In this document: positions 16,289 through 27,870 of the stretch, one piece after another
How the letters are laid out: every line of letters starts with the position of its first letter
How positions within the stretch are numbered: the first letter of the stretch is position 1
NCBI GenBank assembly: GCA_016840095.1
Contig: JAEOSZ010000094.1
Coordinates: 1 to 33,780 of the forward strand
Direction: 5' to 3'
DNA length: 33,780 nt
Source of the DNA: Candidatus Heimdallarchaeota archaeon
GTDB taxonomy: Archaea; Asgardarchaeota; Heimdallarchaeia; Heimdallarchaeales; Heimdallarchaeaceae
The notes under the pieces: generated by a model
What the model saw: the letters and a program-made list of their open reading frames with translations, nothing else
Told to the model about the DNA's origin: nothing
Database searches by the model: none
Made by a program: the position numbers and the translations under genes

Positions 16289-16768
16289 CTATTTTCTTCG
16301 TCTTAAGCCTATTTGTGCAGGGGGATTGATAAACAGAGCAATTATCAGCATTATAGACATCCCAAAGATTTCTTTGAAGGTTACACTATCTACTACTCCA
16401 CCAGGCATTATACTTCTTATAGCACCAATTGCTTCAAAACCAAAGAATACGATGAAGATTTGAATGAAAAGGTACAAACCTATACTTATTAGTGATCCAC
16501 GTATAATATAGCGATATAATTTTCTTTCTTTTGTATCTCTGACTCTATTCATTAGAGCTTCTGTAATTAGAAGAGATACTGCAGTTAGACCTATAGCTCC
16601 AAAGATAGGAAATGCGATCAATAACGGAAGATTTTCCCAATTATTAAATTCAACAATATCATGTAAGTAATAGAAGTGAGGTATTTGTGCTAGAAATGCA
16701 AATGCAAAAACTGCGATAACACTGGGCCACATCGACTGTTTGTCTAAAATTCTAATTTTTGAACTCAT
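16289..16768 (-). CDS. Hypothetical membrane protein (about 4 TM)
   Basis: Four hydrophobic segments and a basic C-terminus (RRRK). Confidence 0.7.
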   Translation of the reverse strand: MSSKIRILDKQSMWPSVIAVFAFAFLAQIPHFYYLHDIVEFNNWENLPLLIAFPIFGAIGLTAVSLLITEALMNRVRDTKERKLYRYIIRGSLISIGLYLFIQIFIVFFGFEAIGAIRSIMPGGVVDSVTFKEIFGMSIMLIIALFINPPAQIGLRRRK

Positions 16769-16871: not shown

Positions 16872-18440
16872 CTAATGATCTGATTCATCAAAAGTGTAAC
16901 CTTTCTCTATTTTGAACTCGCAGAAATTATGACCAGTTCCATGGCATTTTGTTTCAGTAACAATAGGAGGATCATTTAGTATTAGTGCTAAACGTCCAGC
17001 AATGTAGCCAGCTTGAAAGTCACACAATACTTCGTTCAAATTTGTTTCAGAGAGGTTTGCACCTGAAGCATATGCGCATTCATGGATTCTTATAAACATC
17101 TCATCTTCATCTTCTCCTTCAAAAACATCAACAAAAGAGTGTTGTCGGGACAAATAGTTTGTTGGGTGAGTTAAATACTTCTTCATAATTTCTGTAGCTT
17201 GTTTTAAAGACTCTATAGGTAATTCTGCATCTTCTGATGCTAACAAATCATAAATATGACTCTTACCTGGTCCTATAACTCCAAGCTCTCTCCCTGCAGA
17301 ATACAGTAGAGCACCACAGAATTTATCTCGAAACTTGAGGGACATTATCTGTTGTTGTAAAGAGCTTATATGGACATAATCAAGATCATTTGGCCTTAGA
17401 GCTTCCTTCATTAGCATAGAATTATATCCATGTTGAGTTGTTTCATGAATAAACTCATAGAATAATTGCCGTCTATGTTCTTCTGCTGGAAATTCTCCTA
17501 GAAACTGAACTTGTTTAGCTTGACTAATATCTAGAATCTTGTAAGGAGCTTTACCAATCTCTTTACCAATGTGTACTTCTATATCAAATTCACAGTAGTC
17601 GTCTCCTAATCCCTTGCACTTTGTTTCAACTACACTAGTTGCTGAACCTATCATTGCTTCTATTGTACCAGCAATCTCACCAGCTGTGAAATGACATAGA
17701 GTTTCGCCTATGTTAATTGCACCTGCACTATTAGCAAGTTCATAGATTCTGAGAGTAGCTGTATATCCTTCCATCTTTGCAACATCACATTGGGTAGCAT
17801 GATAGAGAGGAACAGTAGTGTTATGACTATACAATTGAGCAAGAGCTAGTAAAACTTCTTGGAATCTTTCTTCAGGTTTGACAGCACCAACTCTGGGATT
17901 TAAAACTGTTAAATAGTATGGAGCTGCACCAAAAATACCTAGTTCTCTTCCGCTTTGATAAAGAAGTTGGGGAATTAGTGGGTCTAGTTGTAAAAGAGAC
18001 ATCATCACTGCTTGATATACACTAATATGAACATAATCACCTAGATTTTTGCGAACGATCTCCTGAGAAATAATACTGCTGATGGTATTCTTTGTAAGAA
18101 TCATCATACTTTCTTTTCTTCTTGTATCTTTTTCCTGGCTGATAATGTTTGGTAGAATTTGCGACCAAAGCTTTTCTCTAATAACATCTTCAGTAATTAA
18201 ACCCTCAGCTATCCTTTCCTCATTCATCATGACTACAGGAACACTTAGAATACCATATTTAGCCGCAATCTCTTGTTCTTCAGATATATCGATTGTACTC
18301 ACGTGAAGCATTCCTTTCATTGAGGTACCTGCGATATTTTCAATAACACGTTTAACATCAGGACATGCAAAACAGGTAGGACTAGTAAAGAATAAAAGCC
18401 TCATTCTTTCGGTATCTTGAAGAGTTTCATCTTCGGCCAT
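16872..18440 (-). CDS. Thioredoxin-like (CxxC) domain fused to two tandem V4R domains; start taken at ATG 18440
   Basis: FFTSPTCFACP and YGILSVP thioredoxin motifs. Two repeats of DYVHIS...LLYxxGRELG...LCxFxAGxIAG...ETKC-x7-CEF. Confidence 0.85.
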   Translation of the reverse strand: MAEDETLQDTERMRLLFFTSPTCFACPDVKRVIENIAGTSMKGMLHVSTIDISEEQEIAAKYGILSVPVVMMNEERIAEGLITEDVIREKLWSQILPNIISQEKDTRRKESMMILTKNTISSIISQEIVRKNLGDYVHISVYQAVMMSLLQLDPLIPQLLYQSGRELGIFGAAPYYLTVLNPRVGAVKPEERFQEVLLALAQLYSHNTTVPLYHATQCDVAKMEGYTATLRIYELANSAGAINIGETLCHFTAGEIAGTIEAMIGSATSVVETKCKGLGDDYCEFDIEVHIGKEIGKAPYKILDISQAKQVQFLGEFPAEEHRRQLFYEFIHETTQHGYNSMLMKEALRPNDLDYVHISSLQQQIMSLKFRDKFCGALLYSAGRELGVIGPGKSHIYDLLASEDAELPIESLKQATEIMKKYLTHPTNYLSRQHSFVDVFEGEDEDEMFIRIHECAYASGANLSETNLNEVLCDFQAGYIAGRLALILNDPPIVTETKCHGTGHNFCEFKIEKGYTFDESDH

Positions 18441-18570
18441 TAAAACAACCCCAGTAAAAAACAATTCAGATAGAATGATAAAAATGTTTGCTTAACATCA
18501 ATGACAAACACTCTCGAAAGTGCAGCCAAAATTGTGCATAAAATTTTTCTGGTTATTATAATTTAAAAGG

Positions 18571-18708
18571 ATGACCTATTTATCATGTCCATCCTATATC
18601 GTAGCCAGGATAATTATTGGATTGTTGGTTGGATTGGCACTAAAGAAAATCAGAGAGAAAAAGAAAGAACCTAAAACAGATTATGCGATTTTGATGGGGG
18701 AAATGTAG
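18571..18708 (+). CDS. Putative 45-aa single-TM microprotein or gene remnant (not in the ORF track)
   Basis: Manual translation gives MTYLSCPSYIVARIIIGLLVGLALKKIREKKKEPKTDYAILMGEM*. Confidence 0.4.
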   Translation: MTYLSCPSYIVARIIIGLLVGLALKKIREKKKEPKTDYAILMGEM

Positions 18709-18752
18709 GTAAAACAACAATCTAAAACTAATCAAGAATTTTTTTCAAGAAA

Positions 18753-18810
18753 GCAAAAGTTATATATCAATGATTGAACATGTGCTTGTTCATTACGAAT
18801 TTAATGGTGA
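18753..18810 (+). promoter_or_regulatory. Thermosome promoter: BRE/TATA, palindrome and SD-like site
   Basis: gcaaaag-ttatatat at 18753-18767; TGAACA-N6-TGTTCA at 18775-18792; GGTGA at 18806-18810. Confidence 0.65.
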
Positions 18811-18815
18811 TATAA

Positions 18816-20471
18816 ATGTACGGTCAAGGACAAGTACCTGTAATAATTCTAAAAGAAGGAACTCAAAGGTCTAAAGGTAGAGATGCTCAAAGAAATAATA
18901 TTATGGCAGCCACTGTAGTTGCTGACACAATTAAGAGCACACTTGGGCCCAAAGGTATGGATAAAATGATGGTTGATAGCTTAGGGGATATTTTAATCTC
19001 CAATGATGGTGCTACTATTCTTGATGAAATCGATGTTCAACATCCAGCTGCTAAAATGATTGTTCAAGTAGCTAAAGCTCAAGATCAAGAAACAGGTGAT
19101 GGTACCACTAGCTCAGTAATTATCGCAGGAGAACTCCTCAAGAAAGGTGGAGAACTATTAGATAAGAAAATCCATGCATCCTTAATAGTTGAAGGTTATA
19201 AAGCAGCTTCCCAAAAAGCTCAAGAACTAATTGAAGGTTATGCTAAAAAACTCAATCCAACAGAAGACGATAAACTTCTTTTCCAAATTGCTGAAACCTC
19301 ATTGCATAGCAAATCAGTTCATTCAGCTAAGGAAAATATCGCTCAAATTGCTGTCGATAGTGTGAAGAAAGTAGCTGATGAAACTAATGGAAGTTTCATT
19401 GTTGATCTAGATAATATCAAAATCTTACAAAAGATTGGTAAAAATCTAAGAGAATCAAAATTAATTGAAGGTGTTATAGTTGACAAGGAAGTTGTTCACA
19501 CTGGAATGCCTAAGAACATAAAGAATGCAAAAGTGCTTCTTCTCAACCAGAATGTTGAGGTTCAAAAAGGTGAATGGGACAGAGAAATACGTATAAATGA
19601 TCCCTTAGAAATGAAATCCTTCCTTGATAACGAAGAACAAATTTTAAGAGATATGGTTGATCAAATTGTTGAAACTGGAGCAAATGTAGTTGTTGCTCAG
19701 AAAGGTATTGATGATATGGCTCAATACTTCATGGCAAAACAAAATATCATGGCAATCAGACGTGTTAAGAAAAGTGATATGGAAAAACTTGCACGTGCTA
19801 CAGGTGGTAAAGTAGTAACCAATTTGAAAGATGCTAAGAAAGAAGATCTTGGAGATGCAGGATTAGTTGAAGAAGTAAAAATCGGTGATGAAGACCATGT
19901 TTTCATTGGAGAATGTAAGAATCCAAAATCCGTTTCTATAATACTCTATGGTGCTACAAAATACGTAACTGATGAAGCTGAAAGAGCAATTCATGATGCT
20001 CTATGTGTAGTTAGAAATGTTGTAGAAGACAAGACTTACCTACCAGGCGGTGGAGCAACTTATACTGAGCTTTCATTAAGATTAGATGAATATGCAGATG
20101 AATTCAAGGATAAAAGACAACTAGCTGTTAAAGCTTTTGCAGAAGCACTTCTTGCAATCCCAATAACTTTAGCGGAAAATGCAGGAATTGATCCTTTAGA
20201 CATTCTAAATGAACTTCGTTCAGCTCATGCTGAAGAAAATCTATCTGCTGGTTTAAACCTATTCAAAAATGGTAAGATTGAAGATATGTTCAAAATAGGT
20301 ATCATTGAACCCCATAGAGTAGTTGCTCAAGCAATAAAATCTGCAAGTGAATCAGCTATCATGATCATGCGAATTGATGATGTAATTGTAGCTAGATCAA
20401 GTGCTCCAGCTATGCCACCAGGTGGAATGCCTCCAGGAATGGGCGGGGGAATGCCACCAGGAATGATGTAG
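18816..20471 (+). CDS. ths: Thermosome (group II chaperonin) subunit
   Basis: [42 protein letters not shown] and a Gly-Met-Pro-rich tail. Confidence 0.97.
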
Positions 20472-20589: not shown

Positions 20590-21810
20590 ATGGGTGAAAA
20601 AGCAAGGAAGGGAGTAAAAAAAGAATTACTAAAAAAAACTCCTTTTGGTTATGTATATAAAGCGACTAACATCAAAAATTGGAAAATCTATATTGGTAAA
20701 GCCAAGGAAGGTAGAACTGGAAGAGGAAAAAACGCAATTGAAAAGCGTTGGAACGAGGAAATTGAGAGAGCTAGACGATTAGAACGTTGGAATAAAGAAC
20801 ACCCCATGGAGAAAAAGAGAATACGTTATATTGAGAATGCTATAAATAAATATGGAGAAGAGAGTTTTAGATTGGAAGAGGTAGATGTAGCATTTACTAA
20901 AAACGAGTTGAATGAGAAAGAAAGATATTGGATAAACTATTTTGAATCAAGACATCACTCTAAAGGTTATAACTTGAGAGATGGGGGTGAGGGTGGATCT
21001 CATCACGAAAAAACAAAAGCGCTATTATCTAAAAAAGCTCAAGAAAACATAAAAAATCCAGAATACTTGAAAAAACTATCACTTGCTACAAAGAATCTGT
21101 GGAAGGATGAAACATATCAAAAAAAAGTGAGAAAAGGAGTTCAGGAGAAATATAAAGAAAAGGAATATTTGGAGAAGCAAATAAAAGAAAGAAGAACAAG
21201 AGCAAAAAATCCAAAGTGGATAAAAAAGATGTCTCGAATTAATAGAGATAGGAGTAAAGATCCAATATGGAGAAAAAAGCTCAGTAATTATAGTCTCGAA
21301 AAATGGAGGGAACGAGAATATGTTAAGAGACAACTAAAGTCTAGGGAAGCAAAAAGAAAGGTTATTGAAGATAAAGAAGAGTTCCTAAAAGATATAACAA
21401 AGATGCAGAAAAAAGATATTGATGCAAAGTATGGTATGACCAGTAAAACAACCAATAGATATATTCAACGGATACTTGGTCATCAAGGAGTAACAAACTT
21501 TACTCAAGCAAGGGATTACTTGGAAAATAGGAATTTAGTTGATGTTCTAGAGGATATTGAAAATAATAAAGAAAGACTATTTAAGGAAAAAATTGAGAAA
21601 AGAAAAAAACTAGATGACAAAAAGCAATTCTTACAAGATATAAAAGAAATGGAGAAAAAAGATATTGATGCAAAGTATGGTATAACCAGCAAAACAACCA
21701 ATAGATATATTCAACGGATACTTGGTCATCAAGGAGTAACAAACTTTACTCAAGCAAGAAATTATCTGAAAAATAAGAATCTAGCTGAAGTTCTAGAGGA
21801 TATAAGATAA
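20590..21810 (+). CDS. Free-standing GIY-YIG endonuclease with helical repeats and a duplicated C-terminal HTH-like module
   Basis: GYVY...IYIG, conserved Arg (KRW), Glu (NEKERYWI) and GYN motifs; very Lys/Glu-rich. Confidence 0.88.
   Translation: MGEKARKGVKKELLKKTPFGYVYKATNIKNWKIYIGKAKEGRTGRGKNAIEKRWNEEIERARRLERWNKEHPMEKKRIRYIENAINKYGEESFRLEEVDVAFTKNELNEKERYWINYFESRHHSKGYNLRDGGEGGSHHEKTKALLSKKAQENIKNPEYLKKLSLATKNLWKDETYQKKVRKGVQEKYKEKEYLEKQIKERRTRAKNPKWIKKMSRINRDRSKDPIWRKKLSNYSLEKWREREYVKRQLKSREAKRKVIEDKEEFLKDITKMQKKDIDAKYGMTSKTTNRYIQRILGHQGVTNFTQARDYLENRNLVDVLEDIENNKERLFKEKIEKRKKLDDKKQFLQDIKEMEKKDIDAKYGITSKTTNRYIQRILGHQGVTNFTQARNYLKNKNLAEVLEDIR
21001..21357 (+). repeat. Seven in-frame 17-aa (51-bp) degenerate repeats within the GIY-YIG gene
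   Basis: HHEKTKALLSKKAQENI / KNPEYLKKLSLATKNLW / KDETYQKKVRKGVQEKY / KEKEYLEKQIKERRTRA / KNPKWIKKMSRINRDRS / KDPIWRKKLSNYSLEKW / REREYVKRQLKSREAKR. Confidence 0.8.
21411..21803 (+). repeat. Intragenic direct duplication with a 246-bp period (82 codons)
   Basis: A 68-bp identical core at 21445-21512 and 21691-21758, with near-identical flanks. Confidence 0.95.
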
Positions 21811-24638: not shown

Positions 24639-26162
24639 TTAATCTAAGCTTCCAACTTCTTTTTCAACCTCTTCAAGAATCTCACAAGATTTAACAAGAG
24701 CTTTCATTGCATTGTGATCATCAAATAAAGGTCGATCTATATCTAGGAATTCAACATGTCTTCGTATAACTTCTTTAGCTTTAGTTACACCTTTACCAAA
24801 GTTAAATTCTCTGAAGTCTAAAGCTTGAGCAGCAGCCATGAGTTCAATTCCTAAAACACCATAAGCATTATCCATGATTTGGATATTCTTCAAAGCAGTA
24901 TTCATTCCCATTGAGACAAAATCCTCTTGATCTGCTGCAGCTGGAATTGATTGTATACTTGCTGGTGTAGACAGAATTCTCATTTCTACTATTTGCATAT
25001 CAGCTGTATATTGACTAAGCATTAATCCGGACATAAGTCCTCCGTGTTTTGTTAGAAAACCAGGTAGTCCCACACTTAAAGCAGGATGATTCAACCTATT
25101 CATTCTTCTTTCAGACATTACACAAACCATTGTAATTGCTGCACCTACTAAGTCCATTGGTAAGCAAACTGGTGTCCCTTGGAAATTAGCTCCTGTCAAA
25201 GTTAATTTCTCTTCTGTGAAGAAGACAGGGTTATCACCTACACCATTCAGCTCAATTTCTACTTGAGATCTAGCCCAAGCTATGGTGTCATGAGCAGCAC
25301 CTAAAACCTGTGGTGCTGAACGCATTGAGTATGCATCTTGAACCTTAACCTTCAGTTTTCCTTCATATAAATCTCCACCTTTGAAAAGCTTTGAAAGTGC
25401 TTTAGCACACCTCACAGCTCCTGGGAATCCTCTTATTTCATGAAGCTTAGGTGTATATGGTTTCATATTACCCATTAATGCTTCAATTGACATCGCACAT
25501 GCAATTTCTGCCTGTTTCATGAAACGTTCAGCATCATATAGTGTAAGTGCACTCATCGCAGTCAGAAGATTCGACCCATTAATCGCTGCTAAACCATCAC
25601 GTGGTTGCAAACCAGGTATTTCTATACCAGCTCTATCCATAGCTTCTTTCCCTGGTAAGAGTTCACCTTCGTAGAAAGCTCTACCTTCTCCCATTAGTAG
25701 TAAAGCAATTTGAGACATAGGAGATAAATCTCCAGAAGCACCAACTGATCCCTTTTTACAAACCTCTGGTGTAACACCTTTGTTCAACATCTCTACGAAT
25801 GTTTCTGCAATAATTACCCTATTACCTGAATAACCATTCGCTAAAACATTCAATCTTCCTAACATAGCTGCTCTAACATGTTCTATTGGTGCAGGTTCTC
25901 CAATTCCTGCTGCATGATTATATATCAAATATTTCTGAAATAGCAAAACATCCTCATCTGACAATATAGTTTCTGAGAATTCTCCTATTCCAGTTGTTAT
26001 ACCATACATGATTTCTTTTGCTGCTATTTTCTCTTCAATCATATCTCGACATTTCTGCATTCGATCGATTGCATCAGGATGCAACTCTACCTTTTCATTG
26101 TATCGAGCAACATTAACAACATCTTCAATTGTTAACCCTTTACCAGTTATTACATAGGTCAT
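24639..26162 (-). CDS. MIO-dependent aromatic amino-acid ammonia-lyase/aminomutase, HAL-like but with a non-canonical active site
   Basis: GSVGASGDL (MIO), YGITTGIGEF, LIYNHAAG, QDAYSMR, GANFQGTP, DQEDFVSMG. Confidence 0.85.
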   Translation of the reverse strand: MTYVITGKGLTIEDVVNVARYNEKVELHPDAIDRMQKCRDMIEEKIAAKEIMYGITTGIGEFSETILSDEDVLLFQKYLIYNHAAGIGEPAPIEHVRAAMLGRLNVLANGYSGNRVIIAETFVEMLNKGVTPEVCKKGSVGASGDLSPMSQIALLLMGEGRAFYEGELLPGKEAMDRAGIEIPGLQPRDGLAAINGSNLLTAMSALTLYDAERFMKQAEIACAMSIEALMGNMKPYTPKLHEIRGFPGAVRCAKALSKLFKGGDLYEGKLKVKVQDAYSMRSAPQVLGAAHDTIAWARSQVEIELNGVGDNPVFFTEEKLTLTGANFQGTPVCLPMDLVGAAITMVCVMSERRMNRLNHPALSVGLPGFLTKHGGLMSGLMLSQYTADMQIVEMRILSTPASIQSIPAAADQEDFVSMGMNTALKNIQIMDNAYGVLGIELMAAAQALDFREFNFGKGVTKAKEVIRRHVEFLDIDRPLFDDHNAMKALVKSCEILEEVEKEVGSLD

Positions 26163-26325: not shown

Positions 26326-27870
26326 ATGGGTCAGGAAACTGTAGTTTTAGATGGAGATTCTTTAACAATCAAATCCTTGATTGAAGTAACAAGGAAAGGA
26401 AAATCAGTACAACTAAGTGAAGAAGCTAAAAGAAGAATAAAAGAATCCCGCAAAATAATCGAATCCAAACTTGATAAAGATGAAATAATTTATGGAGTAT
26501 CGACTGGTTTTGGAAAACTATCTGATGCAGTTATTTCTCCTTCAGAAAGAGGAAGTTTACAAACCAACCTAATCAAATCACACAGTATTGGTTTTGGTCC
26601 ATATTTACCTGATGAAATTGTTTTAGGTGCAATGGTTATAGAACTAAATTCCTTTTGTAGAGGAGCAAGTGGAATTCGAATAGATATTGCTGAACTACTT
26701 CAAAAACTAATAAATGAAAAGGTTATTCCACTGGTCCCAAGCATAGGTTCTTTAGGTGCAAGTGGAGATCTTTCACCTCTAGCATACATAGCAAGAATCC
26801 TCATAGGTGAGGGAAAAGCAAGATTCAAGAATGAGGTGTTCAAAGGTGCTGAAATTCTTAACAAAATTGGGGAAAAGCCTATAGATCTGCAAGCAAAGGA
26901 AGGATTATCACTAATAAACGGAACTCATGTATTAACATCATTTGCTGCACACTCAATTTATGATTCAATCAATATTTTAGAAAATTCAGTACTGGCTGTT
27001 GGATTGACCTTAGAAGCTTTTGATGGTAATGCTAAAGCGTTTTCTTCTTTTGTATCCAACTTACGTCCCCATAAAGGACAGATTAAATTTGCTCAAGCTG
27101 TGTTAGATATTCTAGAAGGAAGTAGTTTACTTGTTACTGAACCTAAAAGAATTCAAGATCCATATTCGTTAAGATGTTCTCCACAAGTTCATGGTGCCGT
27201 TCTTGATGTTATTTGCCACTGTAAGAGTGTAGTTGAGACTGAGTTAAATTCAACTACTGATAATCCGCTTATAAATTTAGAAACCTCAGAAGTAATTTCT
27301 GGAGGAAATTTCCATGGGGAACCTGTAGGATTAGCTATGGATTATCTTTCTATTGCAATGACTGATCTGGGAAATATCTCTGAACGAAGAGTTAATCTTC
27401 TATTGGATGCAACAATATCTGGACTTCCCTCATTTCTAATCAAAGAATCAGGATTGAATTCAGGGCTAATGATGATACAGTATGTTGATGCAGCAATTGC
27501 TGCGGAAAATAAAATCCTAGCTTCTCCTGCTTCAATTGATAATATTTCTGTTTCTGCTAACCAAGAAGATCATGTTTCTATGGGTTTTACTGCAAGTAAA
27601 AAGGCCTATCAATTAGTTAGAAACATTGTTCAAATGATTGCTATTGAATTCTATACAGCATATCAAGCTTTAGGATTCAAGAAAGATAGAGAGAAGATAT
27701 CTGAAATTATATTAGAGATTTTTAATTTTATTAGTAAAGATATTCCACTACTAACTGAAGACAAATTCTTTGATGAGGAAGTAGATTGGATTGCAGGGAA
27801 AATTGAAAATCGAGTATTTACAGATATGACCAAGAAGAAAATAGGTTTATTTTTTGGTGATCATTTGTGA
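26326..27870 (+). CDS. hutH: Histidine ammonia-lyase
   Basis: YGVSTGFG, LIKSH, GSLGASGDL, QDPYSLRC, GGNFHG, SANQEDHVSMG are all canonical HAL motifs. Confidence 0.93.
   Translation: MGQETVVLDGDSLTIKSLIEVTRKGKSVQLSEEAKRRIKESRKIIESKLDKDEIIYGVSTGFGKLSDAVISPSERGSLQTNLIKSHSIGFGPYLPDEIVLGAMVIELNSFCRGASGIRIDIAELLQKLINEKVIPLVPSIGSLGASGDLSPLAYIARILIGEGKARFKNEVFKGAEILNKIGEKPIDLQAKEGLSLINGTHVLTSFAAHSIYDSINILENSVLAVGLTLEAFDGNAKAFSSFVSNLRPHKGQIKFAQAVLDILEGSSLLVTEPKRIQDPYSLRCSPQVHGAVLDVICHCKSVVETELNSTTDNPLINLETSEVISGGNFHGEPVGLAMDYLSIAMTDLGNISERRVNLLLDATISGLPSFLIKESGLNSGLMMIQYVDAAIAAENKILASPASIDNISVSANQEDHVSMGFTASKKAYQLVRNIVQMIAIEFYTAYQALGFKKDREKISEIILEIFNFISKDIPLLTEDKFFDEEVDWIAGKIENRVFTDMTKKKIGLFFGDHL

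What the first reader, a model, noticed from the sequence alone, without database searches (positions are those of the whole stretch)
16872..18440. Thioredoxin-V4R-V4R protein with no output domain: candidate redox-gated ligand sensor
Seen: an N-terminal thioredoxin fold with CFAC (18363-18374) and a cis-Pro-type SVP motif, then two internally duplicated V4R modules that each keep C...E-x2-C-x7-C. There is no HTH, kinase, cyclase or TM segment. Established: that Cys/Glu pattern is the zinc site of the V4R sensors in DmpR/MopR/PoxR, and V4R shares its fold with H-NOX and TRAPP Bet3. Inference: a single-chain pseudo-dimer whose ligand or zinc binding is coupled to thiol redox state and which signals through protein contacts. 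The two copies differ at one loop (ELANSAG vs ECAYASG), suggesting functional asymmetry. It is divergent from the thermosome, so a stress link is possible.
Basis: partly seen in the sequence, partly recalled or inferred. Interest (0 to 1): 0.7.

Follow-up and report, generated by a model that had tools for sequence, protein, structure and literature searches.

The report
Thioredoxin fused to twin V4R sensors
A Heimdall-group archaeon encodes a soluble, uncharacterised protein that joins a thioredoxin domain to two copies of a zinc-binding V4R sensor domain (the fold of the eukaryotic vesicle-traffic protein Bet3), and an unfused version in Loki-type archaea sits in an operon with a Ras-like GTPase.

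Summary
Window 16875-18440 (-) encodes a 522-aa soluble protein with three parts:
- a thioredoxin domain with invariant CxxC and cis-Pro;
- two V4R modules, 35% identical to each other (E 2e-29);
- in each module a C-x22-E-x2-C-x7-C set, with the spacing of the XylR/MopR zinc site and of the redox-sensitive cysteines of MsvR.

No other domain and no membrane segment is present. The architecture is uncharacterised and found only in Asgard archaea. It occurs in about 87 of 400 species genomes: all Heimdallarchaeia families with more than one sampled genome, including Hodarchaeales, plus Borr/Sifarchaeia. It fills about 30 clusters among 1.84 billion proteins. A tree shows one ancient duplication.

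New here: about 140 Loki-type genomes lack the fusion. They carry instead a tight operon of Ras-family GTPase, thioredoxin and a single V4R. One Heimdall family has a Ras GTPase directly downstream of the fusion, and Hodarchaea have a divergent Roadblock gene.

Best reading (0.45): a thioredoxin-reset zinc-thiolate V4R switch that signals in trans, probably to small-GTPase machinery. The thermosome link holds in two genera only.

The scan had flagged the same fusion in eight other genomes (first-reader notes only).

The parts
16872..18440 (-). Trx-V4R-V4R gene (522 aa plus stop), protein P0001
   Evidence: Homologues at 29-95% identity.
18156..18407 (-). Thioredoxin-fold domain, residues 12-95. 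CFAC (C23, C26) lies at 18363-18374 and the cis-Pro P68 at 18237-18239.
   Evidence: Pfam Thioredoxin_3, Thioredoxin and Glrx-like all score above cut-off. phmmer to 1fo5 (MJ0307 thioredoxin) gives E 5e-9. VIA to 1v98 gives Z 11.5, rmsd 1.5 over 88 residues. C23, C26 and P68 are invariant.
17565..18107 (-). V4R module 1, residues 112-292. Putative zinc ligands: C249 (17694-17696), E272 (17625-17627), C275 (17616-17618), C283 (17592-17594).
   Evidence: Pfam V4R covers 232-288. VIA to MopR 5kbe gives Z 11.7 over model residues 114-306. The ligands are invariant. Module 1 sequences form one clade in the tree.
16899..17453 (-). V4R module 2, residues 330-514. Putative zinc ligands: C473 (17022-17024), E496 (16953-16955), C499 (16944-16946), C507 (16920-16922). 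A further conserved Cys is C375 (17316-17318).
   Evidence: This is the second Pfam V4R stretch. It is 35% identical to module 1, E 2e-29. VIA to Bet3 3kxc gives Z 11.4 over residues 355-517. Module 2 sequences form a clade with support 99.
18441..18815 (.). 375-bp divergent intergenic region shared with the thermosome gene
   Evidence: The arrangement is kept in genera g1 and g2 only.
18816..20471 (+). Thermosome (group II chaperonin), a divergent neighbour. The link is lineage-specific.
   Evidence: PF00118, E 1e-174. The synteny is lost in Heimdallarchaeum and genus g4.
16289..16768 (-). 159-aa multi-pass membrane protein 103 bp downstream on the same strand. It is the only neighbour kept across the whole family f1.
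   Evidence: No Pfam match. Hydropathy peaks above 2. It is adjacent to the fusion gene in 28 of 30 other f1 genomes, falling to 48% identity. In other families its distant homologues are unlinked.

Best explanation
The protein is a cytosolic, stand-alone thiol-redox switch.

Anatomy. Two V4R modules, products of one ancient duplication, pack as a single-chain version of the V4R/Bet3 homodimer. Each module holds a Cys3Glu zinc site that ties the beta-hairpin to a helix over an internal cavity.

Proposed mechanism (inferred). The tethered MJ0307-like thioredoxin domain, with its CxxC and cis-Pro, exchanges electrons with those zinc-thiolate cysteines. Oxidation would give a disulfide and release zinc. 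Re-reduction would restore the site. The V4R pair would thus flip between two conformations, with or without a small hydrophobic ligand in the cavity.

Output (inferred). With no output domain, the state must be read by partner proteins. The most likely partner class is the Ras-family small GTPase and Roadblock machinery.

What is shown and what is not. Shown: the domains, the conserved residues, the fold, the age and spread of the fusion, and the unfused GTPase-thioredoxin-V4R operon. Inferred: zinc binding, electron transfer between the domains, and the partner.
For: Thioredoxin domain:
- It scores over the Pfam cut-offs, and C23, C26 and P68 are invariant down to 29% identity.

Zinc site and redox precedent:
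- Both modules keep C-x22-E-x2-C-x7-C. This is the spacing of the proven zinc site of PoxR/MopR/DmpR, which in XylR numbering is C149/E172/C175/C183.
- It is also the spacing of the redox-sensing cysteines of MaMsvR, C206/C232/C240.
- The M. acetivorans thioredoxin system re-reduces oxidised MsvR.
- The best NCBIfam hit is the MsvR V4R part, E 8e-14.
- The nearest non-Asgard relatives found are HTH-V4R genes, mostly next to rubrerythrin-like ORFs that I judged by eye and did not Pfam-scan.

Fold:
- The model has pLDDT 78 and pTM 0.82.
- Structural matches to Bet3, Thor-TRAPPC3, MJ1460 and MopR give Z 11.7-13.1.

Gene-fusion (Rosetta-stone) link between thioredoxin and V4R:
- In 21 of 22 loci from three Loki-type families, a ~100-aa CxPC thioredoxin and a single V4R with the same Cys/Glu set lie side by side behind a Ras-family GTPase. 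Gaps are 4-55 bp in the loci read in full.
- That V4R is single-copy in 140 of 150 genomes of those families and absent from Heimdall families. The two forms are complementary.
- The operon thioredoxin and the fused thioredoxin domain are reciprocal best or tied-best hits.
- hhalign between the two V4R families gives probability 97.6%, E 3.5e-12.
- A clade of the Loki V4R with both Heimdall modules is not rejected (p-AU 0.66).

GTPase-related neighbours of the fusion gene:
- A Ras GTPase lies directly downstream in 5 of 6 genera of family f4.
- A Roadblock gene is divergent-adjacent in 7 of 15 Hodarchaeal loci.
- Three Roadblock-like genes lie near a second copy of the fusion gene in family f33 (locus group f33b).

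Other context:
- A Bcp peroxiredoxin starts 12 bp downstream in family f7.
- Elsewhere V4R is an input domain fused to HisKA, SpoIIE, GGDEF and KaiC outputs, and in tandem to Roadblock.
Against: - Nothing biochemical is known for any member.
- The zinc site is described as structural in MopR/XylR, so it need not be a switch.
- I could not read model coordinates, so whether the CxxC can reach a V4R cysteine is untested.
- The gene context of the fusion is not conserved across families. Neighbours are thermosome and membrane protein (f1), DUF2110 (f3), PCNA/GINS/TFS/TFE (f4), and DapA/IPMS-like ORFs by eye (Borr/Sif).
- The window's own family has no GTPase or Roadblock gene within 5 kb.
- The f4 GTPase is 126-700 bp away and is not a reciprocal best hit of the Loki operon GTPases.
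- The Roadblock genes near the fusion in f4 and in f5 are not orthologues.
- With 25-46 Ras genes and 4-9 Roadblock genes per genome, some adjacency is expected by chance. My rough count of expectation was made after seeing the data.
- The V4R tree leaves the Loki clade unplaced.
Confidence: 0.45

Rival explanations
1. Bet3/TRAPP-like platform. The V4R pair is a fixed structural pseudo-dimer that binds and regulates a small GTPase as exchange factor, GAP scaffold or effector. The zinc sites are purely structural. The thioredoxin domain is a structural or accessory subunit, not a switch.
For: - The best structural matches are Bet3/TRAPPC3, with Z 13.1 to 6aq3 and 12.8 to Thor-TRAPPC3 7yh3.
- The GTPase-thioredoxin-V4R operon is kept in three Loki-type families, even where the internal order changes (L159).
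- A Ras GTPase lies downstream in f4, and Roadblock genes are neighbours in f5 and f33b.
- Tandem V4R-Roadblock fusions exist elsewhere.
Against: - There is no Pfam TRAPP hit in any of 15 members at E up to 5.
- Z-scores for Bet3 and prokaryotic V4R are tied for the fusion.
- The Loki V4R is nearer to PoxR/MJ1460 (Z 14-15) than to TRAPP subunits (Z 11-12).
- An invariant CxxC plus cis-Pro over 29% identity argues for catalysis, not scaffolding.
- No longin partner is linked.
- There is no GTPase near the gene in most families.
Confidence: 0.2
2. Dedicated electron donor. The thioredoxin domain is the working part and reduces a client such as the Bcp peroxiredoxin. The V4R pair tunes or targets it through a bound ligand or metal.
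For: - An AhpC/TSA peroxiredoxin (E 3e-38) starts 12 bp after the fusion gene in family f7.
- I know Bcp-type peroxiredoxins as thioredoxin-dependent (own knowledge).
- The CxxC is invariant.
Against: - The peroxiredoxin neighbour occurs in one family only.
- This reading does not explain why two V4R modules with full zinc sets are conserved more strongly than the thioredoxin part.
- It also does not explain the GTPase operon.
Confidence: 0.1
3. Carrier or buffer for a hydrophobic small molecule or lipid, bound in the V4R cavities. The thioredoxin domain only protects the cysteines. There is no signalling role.
For: - V4R/Bet3 cavities bind phenols (MopR, PoxR) and palmitate (Bet3).
- Tran et al. 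conclude that Asgard TRAPPC3/V4R proteins are likely ligand binders.
- Sources annotate the family as 'predicted hydrocarbon binding protein'.
Against: - No pocket residues could be checked.
- No metabolic genes are consistently linked.
- This reading does not explain the fusion with a redox enzyme or the GTPase operon.
Confidence: 0.1
4. Redox-activated holdase of the Hsp33 or CnoX chaperedoxin type that hands clients to the thermosome.
For: - The gene is divergent from the thermosome gene in genera g1 and g2.
- There are weak phmmer hits to chaperedoxin/YbbN, E 0.02.
- Zinc-thiolate switches drive Hsp33 (own knowledge).
Against: - Thermosome adjacency is lost in Heimdallarchaeum, in genus g4 and in all other families.
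- No TPR or other client-binding domain is present.
- The YbbN hits cover only the thioredoxin fold.
Confidence: 0.05

Closest known systems
MsvR (methanogen-specific V4R-domain regulator)
   Same: The V4R domains share three conserved cysteines at identical spacing (C-x25-C-x7-C). In MsvR these cysteines control a redox-dependent conformational change and are re-reduced by a thioredoxin system. MsvR is the best NCBIfam hit.
   Different: MsvR has an N-terminal HTH and one V4R, and is a homodimer reduced by free thioredoxin. This protein has no DNA-binding domain, two V4R modules in one chain, and thioredoxin fused in cis. It scores 51.9 bits against a cut-off of 220.
Sensor (A) domains of XylR/DmpR/MopR/PoxR
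   Same: They share the fold (Z 11-12) and the Cys-Glu-Cys-Cys zinc site at identical spacing. Those domains act as dimers.
   Different: Those domains are fused to AAA+ sigma-54 activator and HTH domains, sense phenols or xylenes, and are bacterial. The pocket residues were not compared.
Bet3/TRAPPC3 family, including the crystallised Thor-TRAPPC3 (7yh3)
   Same: They give the best fold matches (Z 12-13). Bet3-family proteins work as dimers or heterodimers (Bet3-Trs33, Bet3-Trs31), which a tandem V4R mimics. Thor-TRAPPC3 also binds zinc through cysteines. TRAPP acts on a Rab GTPase, and the unfused Loki form is in a GTPase operon.
   Different: There is no sequence-level TRAPP match, no longin subunits are linked, and eukaryotic Bet3 has lost the zinc site. 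A thioredoxin partner is unknown for TRAPP.
MJ0307-type small archaeal thioredoxins
   Same: The closest solved relative of the N-terminal domain is 1fo5, E 5e-9. It shares the CxxC, the cis-Pro and the ~85-aa minimal fold.
   Different: The domain scores 47 bits against the equivalog cut-off of 92.75. The inner CxxC residues vary across homologues (CFAC, CYAC, CTWC, CAYC and others). The domain is fused rather than free.
Stand-alone H-NOX sensors encoded next to their signalling partner
   Same: The fold superfamily is related. The logic is the same: a sensor with no output domain that acts on a partner encoded in the same operon.
   Different: H-NOX binds haem. No haem ligands were examined here. 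H-NOX partners are kinases or cyclases, not GTPases.

Membership tests
Thioredoxin superfamily | Thioredoxin fold detected by profile and by structure | tested here: met
   PF13192 scores 32.7 bits (cut-off 24.8) and PF00085 scores 26.1 (cut-off 23.5). VIA to 1v98 gives Z 11.5, rmsd 1.5 over 88 residues.
Thioredoxin superfamily | CxxC active site and cis-Pro loop | tested here: met
   C23, C26 and P68 are invariant in 15 homologues. Whether the Pro is cis is inferred from alignment position only.
Thioredoxin superfamily | Disulfide oxidoreductase activity | not testable with these tools
   Needs an insulin or DTNB reduction assay.
MJ0307-family thioredoxin (TIGR00411) | Score over the equivalog cut-off | tested here: not met
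   47 bits against a cut-off of 92.75. It is a relative, not an equivalog.
V4R domain (PF02830) | Profile match over the gathering score, in two copies | tested here: met
   87.7 bits against a cut-off of 31, in two stretches. All 15 members match.
V4R domain (PF02830) | Cys-Glu-Cys-Cys zinc-site pattern at XylR/MopR spacing | tested here: met
   C249/E272/C275/C283 and C473/E496/C499/C507 compare with XylR C149/E172/C175/C183. Metal binding itself was not tested.
V4R domain (PF02830) | Two-layer alpha/beta V4R fold | tested here: met
   MopR Z 11.7 and MJ1460 Z 11.9. Foldseek probability is 1.00.
MsvR (NF053755) | N-terminal HTH DNA-binding domain plus one V4R, with score over cut-off | tested here: not met
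   51.9 bits against a cut-off of 220. Only the V4R part aligns and no HTH is present.
XylR/DmpR/MopR NtrC-type regulators | AAA+ sigma-54 activator and HTH domains after the sensor | tested here: not met
   No such Pfam hits. The protein ends after module 2.
TRAPP Bet3 family (PF04051) | Sequence-profile membership | tested here: not met
   No TRAPP hit at E up to 5 in any of 15 members.
TRAPP Bet3 family (PF04051) | Bet3 fold | tested here: met
   6aq3 Z 13.1 (rmsd 3.3, 158 aligned) and 7yh3 Z 12.8. These are tied with prokaryotic V4R structures, so the fold does not discriminate.
TRAPP Bet3 family (PF04051) | Assembly with longin subunits and action on a Rab GTPase | not testable with these tools
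   Only gene-neighbourhood hints exist.
Chaperedoxin CnoX/YbbN | Thioredoxin domain followed by a TPR client-binding domain | tested here: not met
   No TPR is present. The hits (E 0.02) cover the thioredoxin fold only.

The most novel reading that the evidence does not exclude
Thioredoxin plus V4R is an ancient Asgard module dedicated to a Ras/Rab-like GTPase. It is unfused in the Loki-type operon and fused and duplicated in Heimdallarchaeia, including Hodarchaeales. On this reading a Bet3-fold protein already regulated a small GTPase in archaea, under thiol-redox control. That would make it a prokaryotic forerunner of TRAPP-type GTPase regulation with an input that eukaryotes lost.
Probability: 0.25. 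Interest if true: 0.9.

Novelty: new variant of a known kind. Interest (0 to 1): 0.68.

Why it matters
V4R is thought to be the prokaryotic ancestor of Bet3, the core of the TRAPP exchange factor for Rab GTPases. What V4R proteins do in Asgard archaea is unknown.

The one structural study of Asgard TRAPPC3/V4R proteins states that GTPase genes are not generally found in operons with such genes. It adds that this makes GTPase-regulator pairs hard to predict.

This family gives two concrete, testable handles:
- a covalent thioredoxin-V4R link conserved across the archaea closest to eukaryotes;
- a near-universal Loki-type operon that names one specific GTPase as the likely partner.

If the link holds, it gives the first matched GTPase-regulator candidate pair in Asgard archaea. 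It also gives an example of redox input into small-GTPase signalling.

If it does not hold, the protein remains a clean new model for the MsvR-type V4R thiol switch, with its reductant built in.

Tried and rejected
I took context from the genome search, the fetch from genomes and the search for related loci instead.
- Thermosome link. It is conserved only in genera g1 and g2 of family f1, so I rejected it as a family-wide clue.
- 159-aa membrane protein as a general partner. It is linked only in f1. Its distant homologues in other families lie elsewhere.
- Orthology of the f4 downstream GTPase with the Loki operon GTPases. It is not supported. Neither is the other's best hit, and all Ras paralogues are about 40% identical.
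- Orthology of the Roadblock genes near the fusion in f4 and f5. I rejected it. The f4 gene's orthologue in f5 lies 400 kb away from the fusion gene. The f4 Roadblock, five genes away in a PCNA/GINS/TFS block, is probably coincidental.
- Placement of the Loki V4R by tree. The backbone is unresolved. The AU test only fails to reject the clade.
- The tandem V4R-Roadblock fusion (P0095). It is not an Asgard protein, with no full-length match in 400 genomes.
- ESM Atlas. It returned only the family's own cluster.
- Model coordinates are not exposed, so I could not measure the CxxC-to-zinc-site distance or the packing of the modules.
- The best Bet3 alignments draw on both modules (model range 133-519 with about 155 residues aligned). 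I cannot explain this without coordinates.
Full report
**What is in the window.**
The ORF at 16872-18440 (-) gives a 522-aa protein, P0001, from the ATG at 18440. Homologues begin at that ATG rather than at the upstream TTG at 18464.
- Pfam finds a thioredoxin domain at residues 20-89. Three thioredoxin-type models score over their cut-offs. It also finds V4R twice (87.7 bits, cut-off 31) and nothing else.
- NCBIfam's best hits are the V4R part of MsvR (E 8e-14) and the MJ0307-type thioredoxin. Both are far below the equivalog cut-offs.
- The closest solved sequence relative of the N-terminus is the MJ0307 thioredoxin 1fo5.
- The highest 19-residue hydropathy is 1.16, so the protein is soluble.
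- The two V4R modules are 35% identical over 178 residues, E 2e-29.

**Conserved residues.**
I aligned 15 homologues at 29-84% identity. The invariant positions include:
- C23 and C26 (the CxxC) and P68;
- in module 1, C249, E272, C275 and C283;
- in module 2, C473, E496, C499 and C507.

The spacing C-x22-E-x2-C-x7-C is that of the zinc site proven in PoxR, MopR and DmpR. In XylR numbering this is C149, E172, C175 and C183. The three cysteines also have the spacing of C206, C232 and C240 of M. acetivorans MsvR. Mutating those changes redox-dependent DNA binding. Oxidised MsvR is re-reduced by the organism's NADPH-thioredoxin reductase-thioredoxin system (citing Sheehan et al. 2015). The inner residues of the CxxC vary across homologues, but the two cysteines never do.

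**Structure.**
AlphaFold2 on the 15-sequence alignment gives mean pLDDT 78 and pTM 0.82. It shows a thioredoxin fold, a long helix, and two helix-plus-sheet modules.
- Foldseek's top matches are Bet3/TRAPPC3 chains, then DmpR/MopR/PoxR sensor domains, H-NOX and Thor-TRAPPC3.
- VIA-align scores are:

| Match | Z | Detail |
|---|---|---|
| Bet3 (6aq3) | 13.1 | rmsd 3.3, 158 aligned |
| Thor-TRAPPC3 (7yh3) | 12.8 | |
| MJ1460 V4R (2oso) | 11.9 | |
| MopR (5kbe) | 11.7 | model residues 114-306 |
| thioredoxins | about 11.5 | rmsd 1.5 |

These are ties. The repeats model as the V4R/Bet3 fold, but the fold does not say which branch they belong to. By sequence they are V4R, since no member hits the Pfam TRAPP model at E up to 5.

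**Distribution.**
The window comes from a Heimdallarchaeote near strain AB_125 (95% identity).
- A six-frame search of 400 Asgard species genomes finds full-length matches in about 87. These cover the window's family f1, including Ca. Heimdallarchaeum. They also cover five more families of the same class, one of which holds a contig named Hodarchaeota. Outside the class they cover four further families, one of them Borrarchaeum/Sifarchaeum.
- A profile search of 1.84 billion representative proteins finds about 30 full-length clusters. Scores then drop sharply to proteins without thioredoxin.
- I found no paper describing the fusion.
- The study that solved Thor-TRAPPC3 discusses Heimdall V4R/TRAPPC3 models and a longin-TRAPPC3 fusion. 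It does not mention thioredoxin.

**One ancient duplication.**
I built a maximum-likelihood tree of 92 V4R domains (quick IQ-TREE, LG+G4).
- All module 1 sequences fall in one clade (SH-aLRT 83).
- All module 2 sequences fall in another (99).
- The two together form a clade (99).
- The two subtrees mirror each other.

The three-domain architecture therefore predates the split of these lineages and has been inherited vertically.

**Gene context of the fusion.**
No neighbour is conserved across families.

| Lineage | Neighbours |
|---|---|
| f1 | The 159-aa membrane protein follows in every genome seen. The thermosome is divergent only in genera g1 and g2. |
| f7 | A Bcp peroxiredoxin starts 12 bp downstream. 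|
| f3 | A DUF2110 gene follows. |
| Borr/Sif | Two flanking ORFs look DapA-like and isopropylmalate-synthase-like by eye. I did not Pfam-scan them. |
| f4 | The gene sits in a TFS-PCNA-Gins51 ... TFE-alpha block. A Ras-family GTPase (E 1e-48 to 1e-53) lies directly downstream in 5 of 6 genera, 126-700 bp away. A 121-127-aa protein with no significant Pfam match follows the GTPase closely, overlapping it by 4 bp or up to about 80 bp away. |
| Hodarchaeal loci | A Roadblock/LC7 gene (E 5e-16) is the divergent neighbour in 7 of 15 loci. |
| f33, second copy of the fusion (locus group f33b) | Three Roadblock-like genes and a TrmB-type HTH gene lie just upstream. |

These genomes hold 25-46 Ras genes and 4-9 Roadblock genes each. 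Direct adjacency is uncommon by chance but not rare across a dozen lineages. The f4 and f5 Roadblock genes are not orthologues. On its own this evidence is only suggestive.

**The unfused form.**
Weak matches of P0001 in the largest Asgard family spanned residues 14-287 with in-frame stops. Reading those loci showed three separate genes in a row:
- a Ras-family GTPase (PF00071, E 3e-46);
- a ~100-aa thioredoxin with a CxPC motif and the cis-Pro;
- a ~160-aa protein with C-x22-E-x2-C-x8-C.

Gaps between them are 4-55 bp in the loci read in full.
- The third protein scores below threshold for Pfam V4R. It models with pLDDT 87 as the V4R fold: PoxR Z 14.9, MJ1460 Z 14.4, and TRAPP subunits Z 11-12. 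It matches the Heimdall family by hhalign at probability 97.6%, E 3.5e-12.
- In 22 loci from three families, the GTPase orthologue (51-83% identity) and the V4R gene are adjacent. The thioredoxin ORF was called in 21 of them. The flanking TBP, CinA and second-GTPase genes move about. In one family the order is GTPase-V4R-thioredoxin with a 4-bp overlap.
- The V4R gene is single-copy in 140 of 150 genomes of these families and in no Heimdall family.
The closest database proteins include one from the Loki's Castle LCGC14 metagenome and one labelled Lokiarchaeota, among inconsistent labels. I therefore call these families Loki-type.
- The operon thioredoxin's best hit in 4 of 5 fusion-bearing genomes is the fused thioredoxin domain. 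The fused domain's best or tied-best hit in 5 of 5 Loki-type genomes is the operon thioredoxin.
- The tree leaves the Loki V4R clade unplaced. Forcing it together with both Heimdall modules gives a slightly better likelihood (p-AU 0.66).

I read this as a gene-fusion link: thioredoxin and V4R work together. In Loki-type archaea they are co-transcribed with one specific GTPase. The published statement that MK-D1 GTPase genes are generally not in operons with TRAPPC3 genes suggests this operon has not been described.

**V4R as an input domain.**
Other representatives found by the profile search carry V4R in front of signalling outputs:
- histidine kinase;
- SpoIIE phosphatase;
- GGDEF;
- a KaiC-type ATPase;
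- a Cache domain.

In two clusters, tandem V4R stands in front of a Roadblock/LC7 domain. That last type is not Asgard. This fits a sensor role and gives an independent V4R-Roadblock link.

**Verdict.**
The feature is real, ancient, conserved and undescribed. The best-supported mechanism is a zinc-thiolate V4R switch with its own thioredoxin, read out in trans. The GTPase partner is a good lead from the unfused operon. It is not shown for this window's family, which has no GTPase or Roadblock gene within 5 kb. The thermosome link is local.

I class it as a new variant of known kinds (V4R sensors and thioredoxin fusions). There is about a one-in-four chance that it is part of an archaeal Bet3-fold GTPase regulator.

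Noticed in passing
Loci L143-L152 and L155-L166 (three Loki-type families): A conserved operon of Ras-family GTPase, ~100-aa CxPC thioredoxin and ~160-aa V4R-fold protein. It is single-copy in 140 of 150 genomes and is usually near TBP and a second Ras GTPase. It appears undescribed.
   Followed up: yes
L003:1081-2328 (-), own genome contig C22: A 415-aa paralogue with a longin/roadblock-looking N-terminus and one V4R domain. It is probably the 'Heimdall longin-TRAPPC3 fusion' type mentioned by Tran et al. 2024.
   Followed up: no
L153 and L154 (genomes G004 and G002, family f9): Three to four tandem single-V4R genes flanked by KaiC-like ATPases, a Gtr1/RagA-Arf-like GTPase, a Roadblock gene and two longin-looking ORFs without Pfam hits. 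KaiC-V4R-V4R fusions (P0138, P0159) exist elsewhere.
   Followed up: partly
window 20590-21810 (+): A 406-aa ORF with no Pfam hit. By eye it has a GIY-YIG-like N-terminus and a duplicated ~70-aa C-terminal unit. It is absent between the thermosome and UbiA genes in most related loci, so it is likely a mobile insertion.
   Followed up: partly
L087 and L088 (bacterial MAGs); L075, L077, L116 (Borr/Sif): In the bacterial MAGs, a ~400-aa V4R protein sits among ORFs that look by eye like a dapF-dapA-dapB-aminotransferase operon. In Borr/Sif archaea, a DapA-like ORF (also judged by eye) lies directly upstream of the thioredoxin-V4R-V4R gene.
   Followed up: no
P0095 and P0133 (metagenome proteins): Tandem V4R fused to a C-terminal Roadblock/LC7 domain. 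Their origin is unknown, and the P0095 type was not found full-length in 400 Asgard genomes.
   Followed up: partly
window 24639-26162 (-) and 26326-27870 (+): Two divergent aromatic amino acid lyase genes (PF00221, E 1e-160 and 4e-173). Most of the rest of the window is glycine-cleavage genes (T, H, P1, P2).
   Followed up: no
G052:C219:49522-50291: The distant homologue of the 159-aa membrane protein in a family-f4 genome lies next to a Roadblock gene.
   Followed up: no
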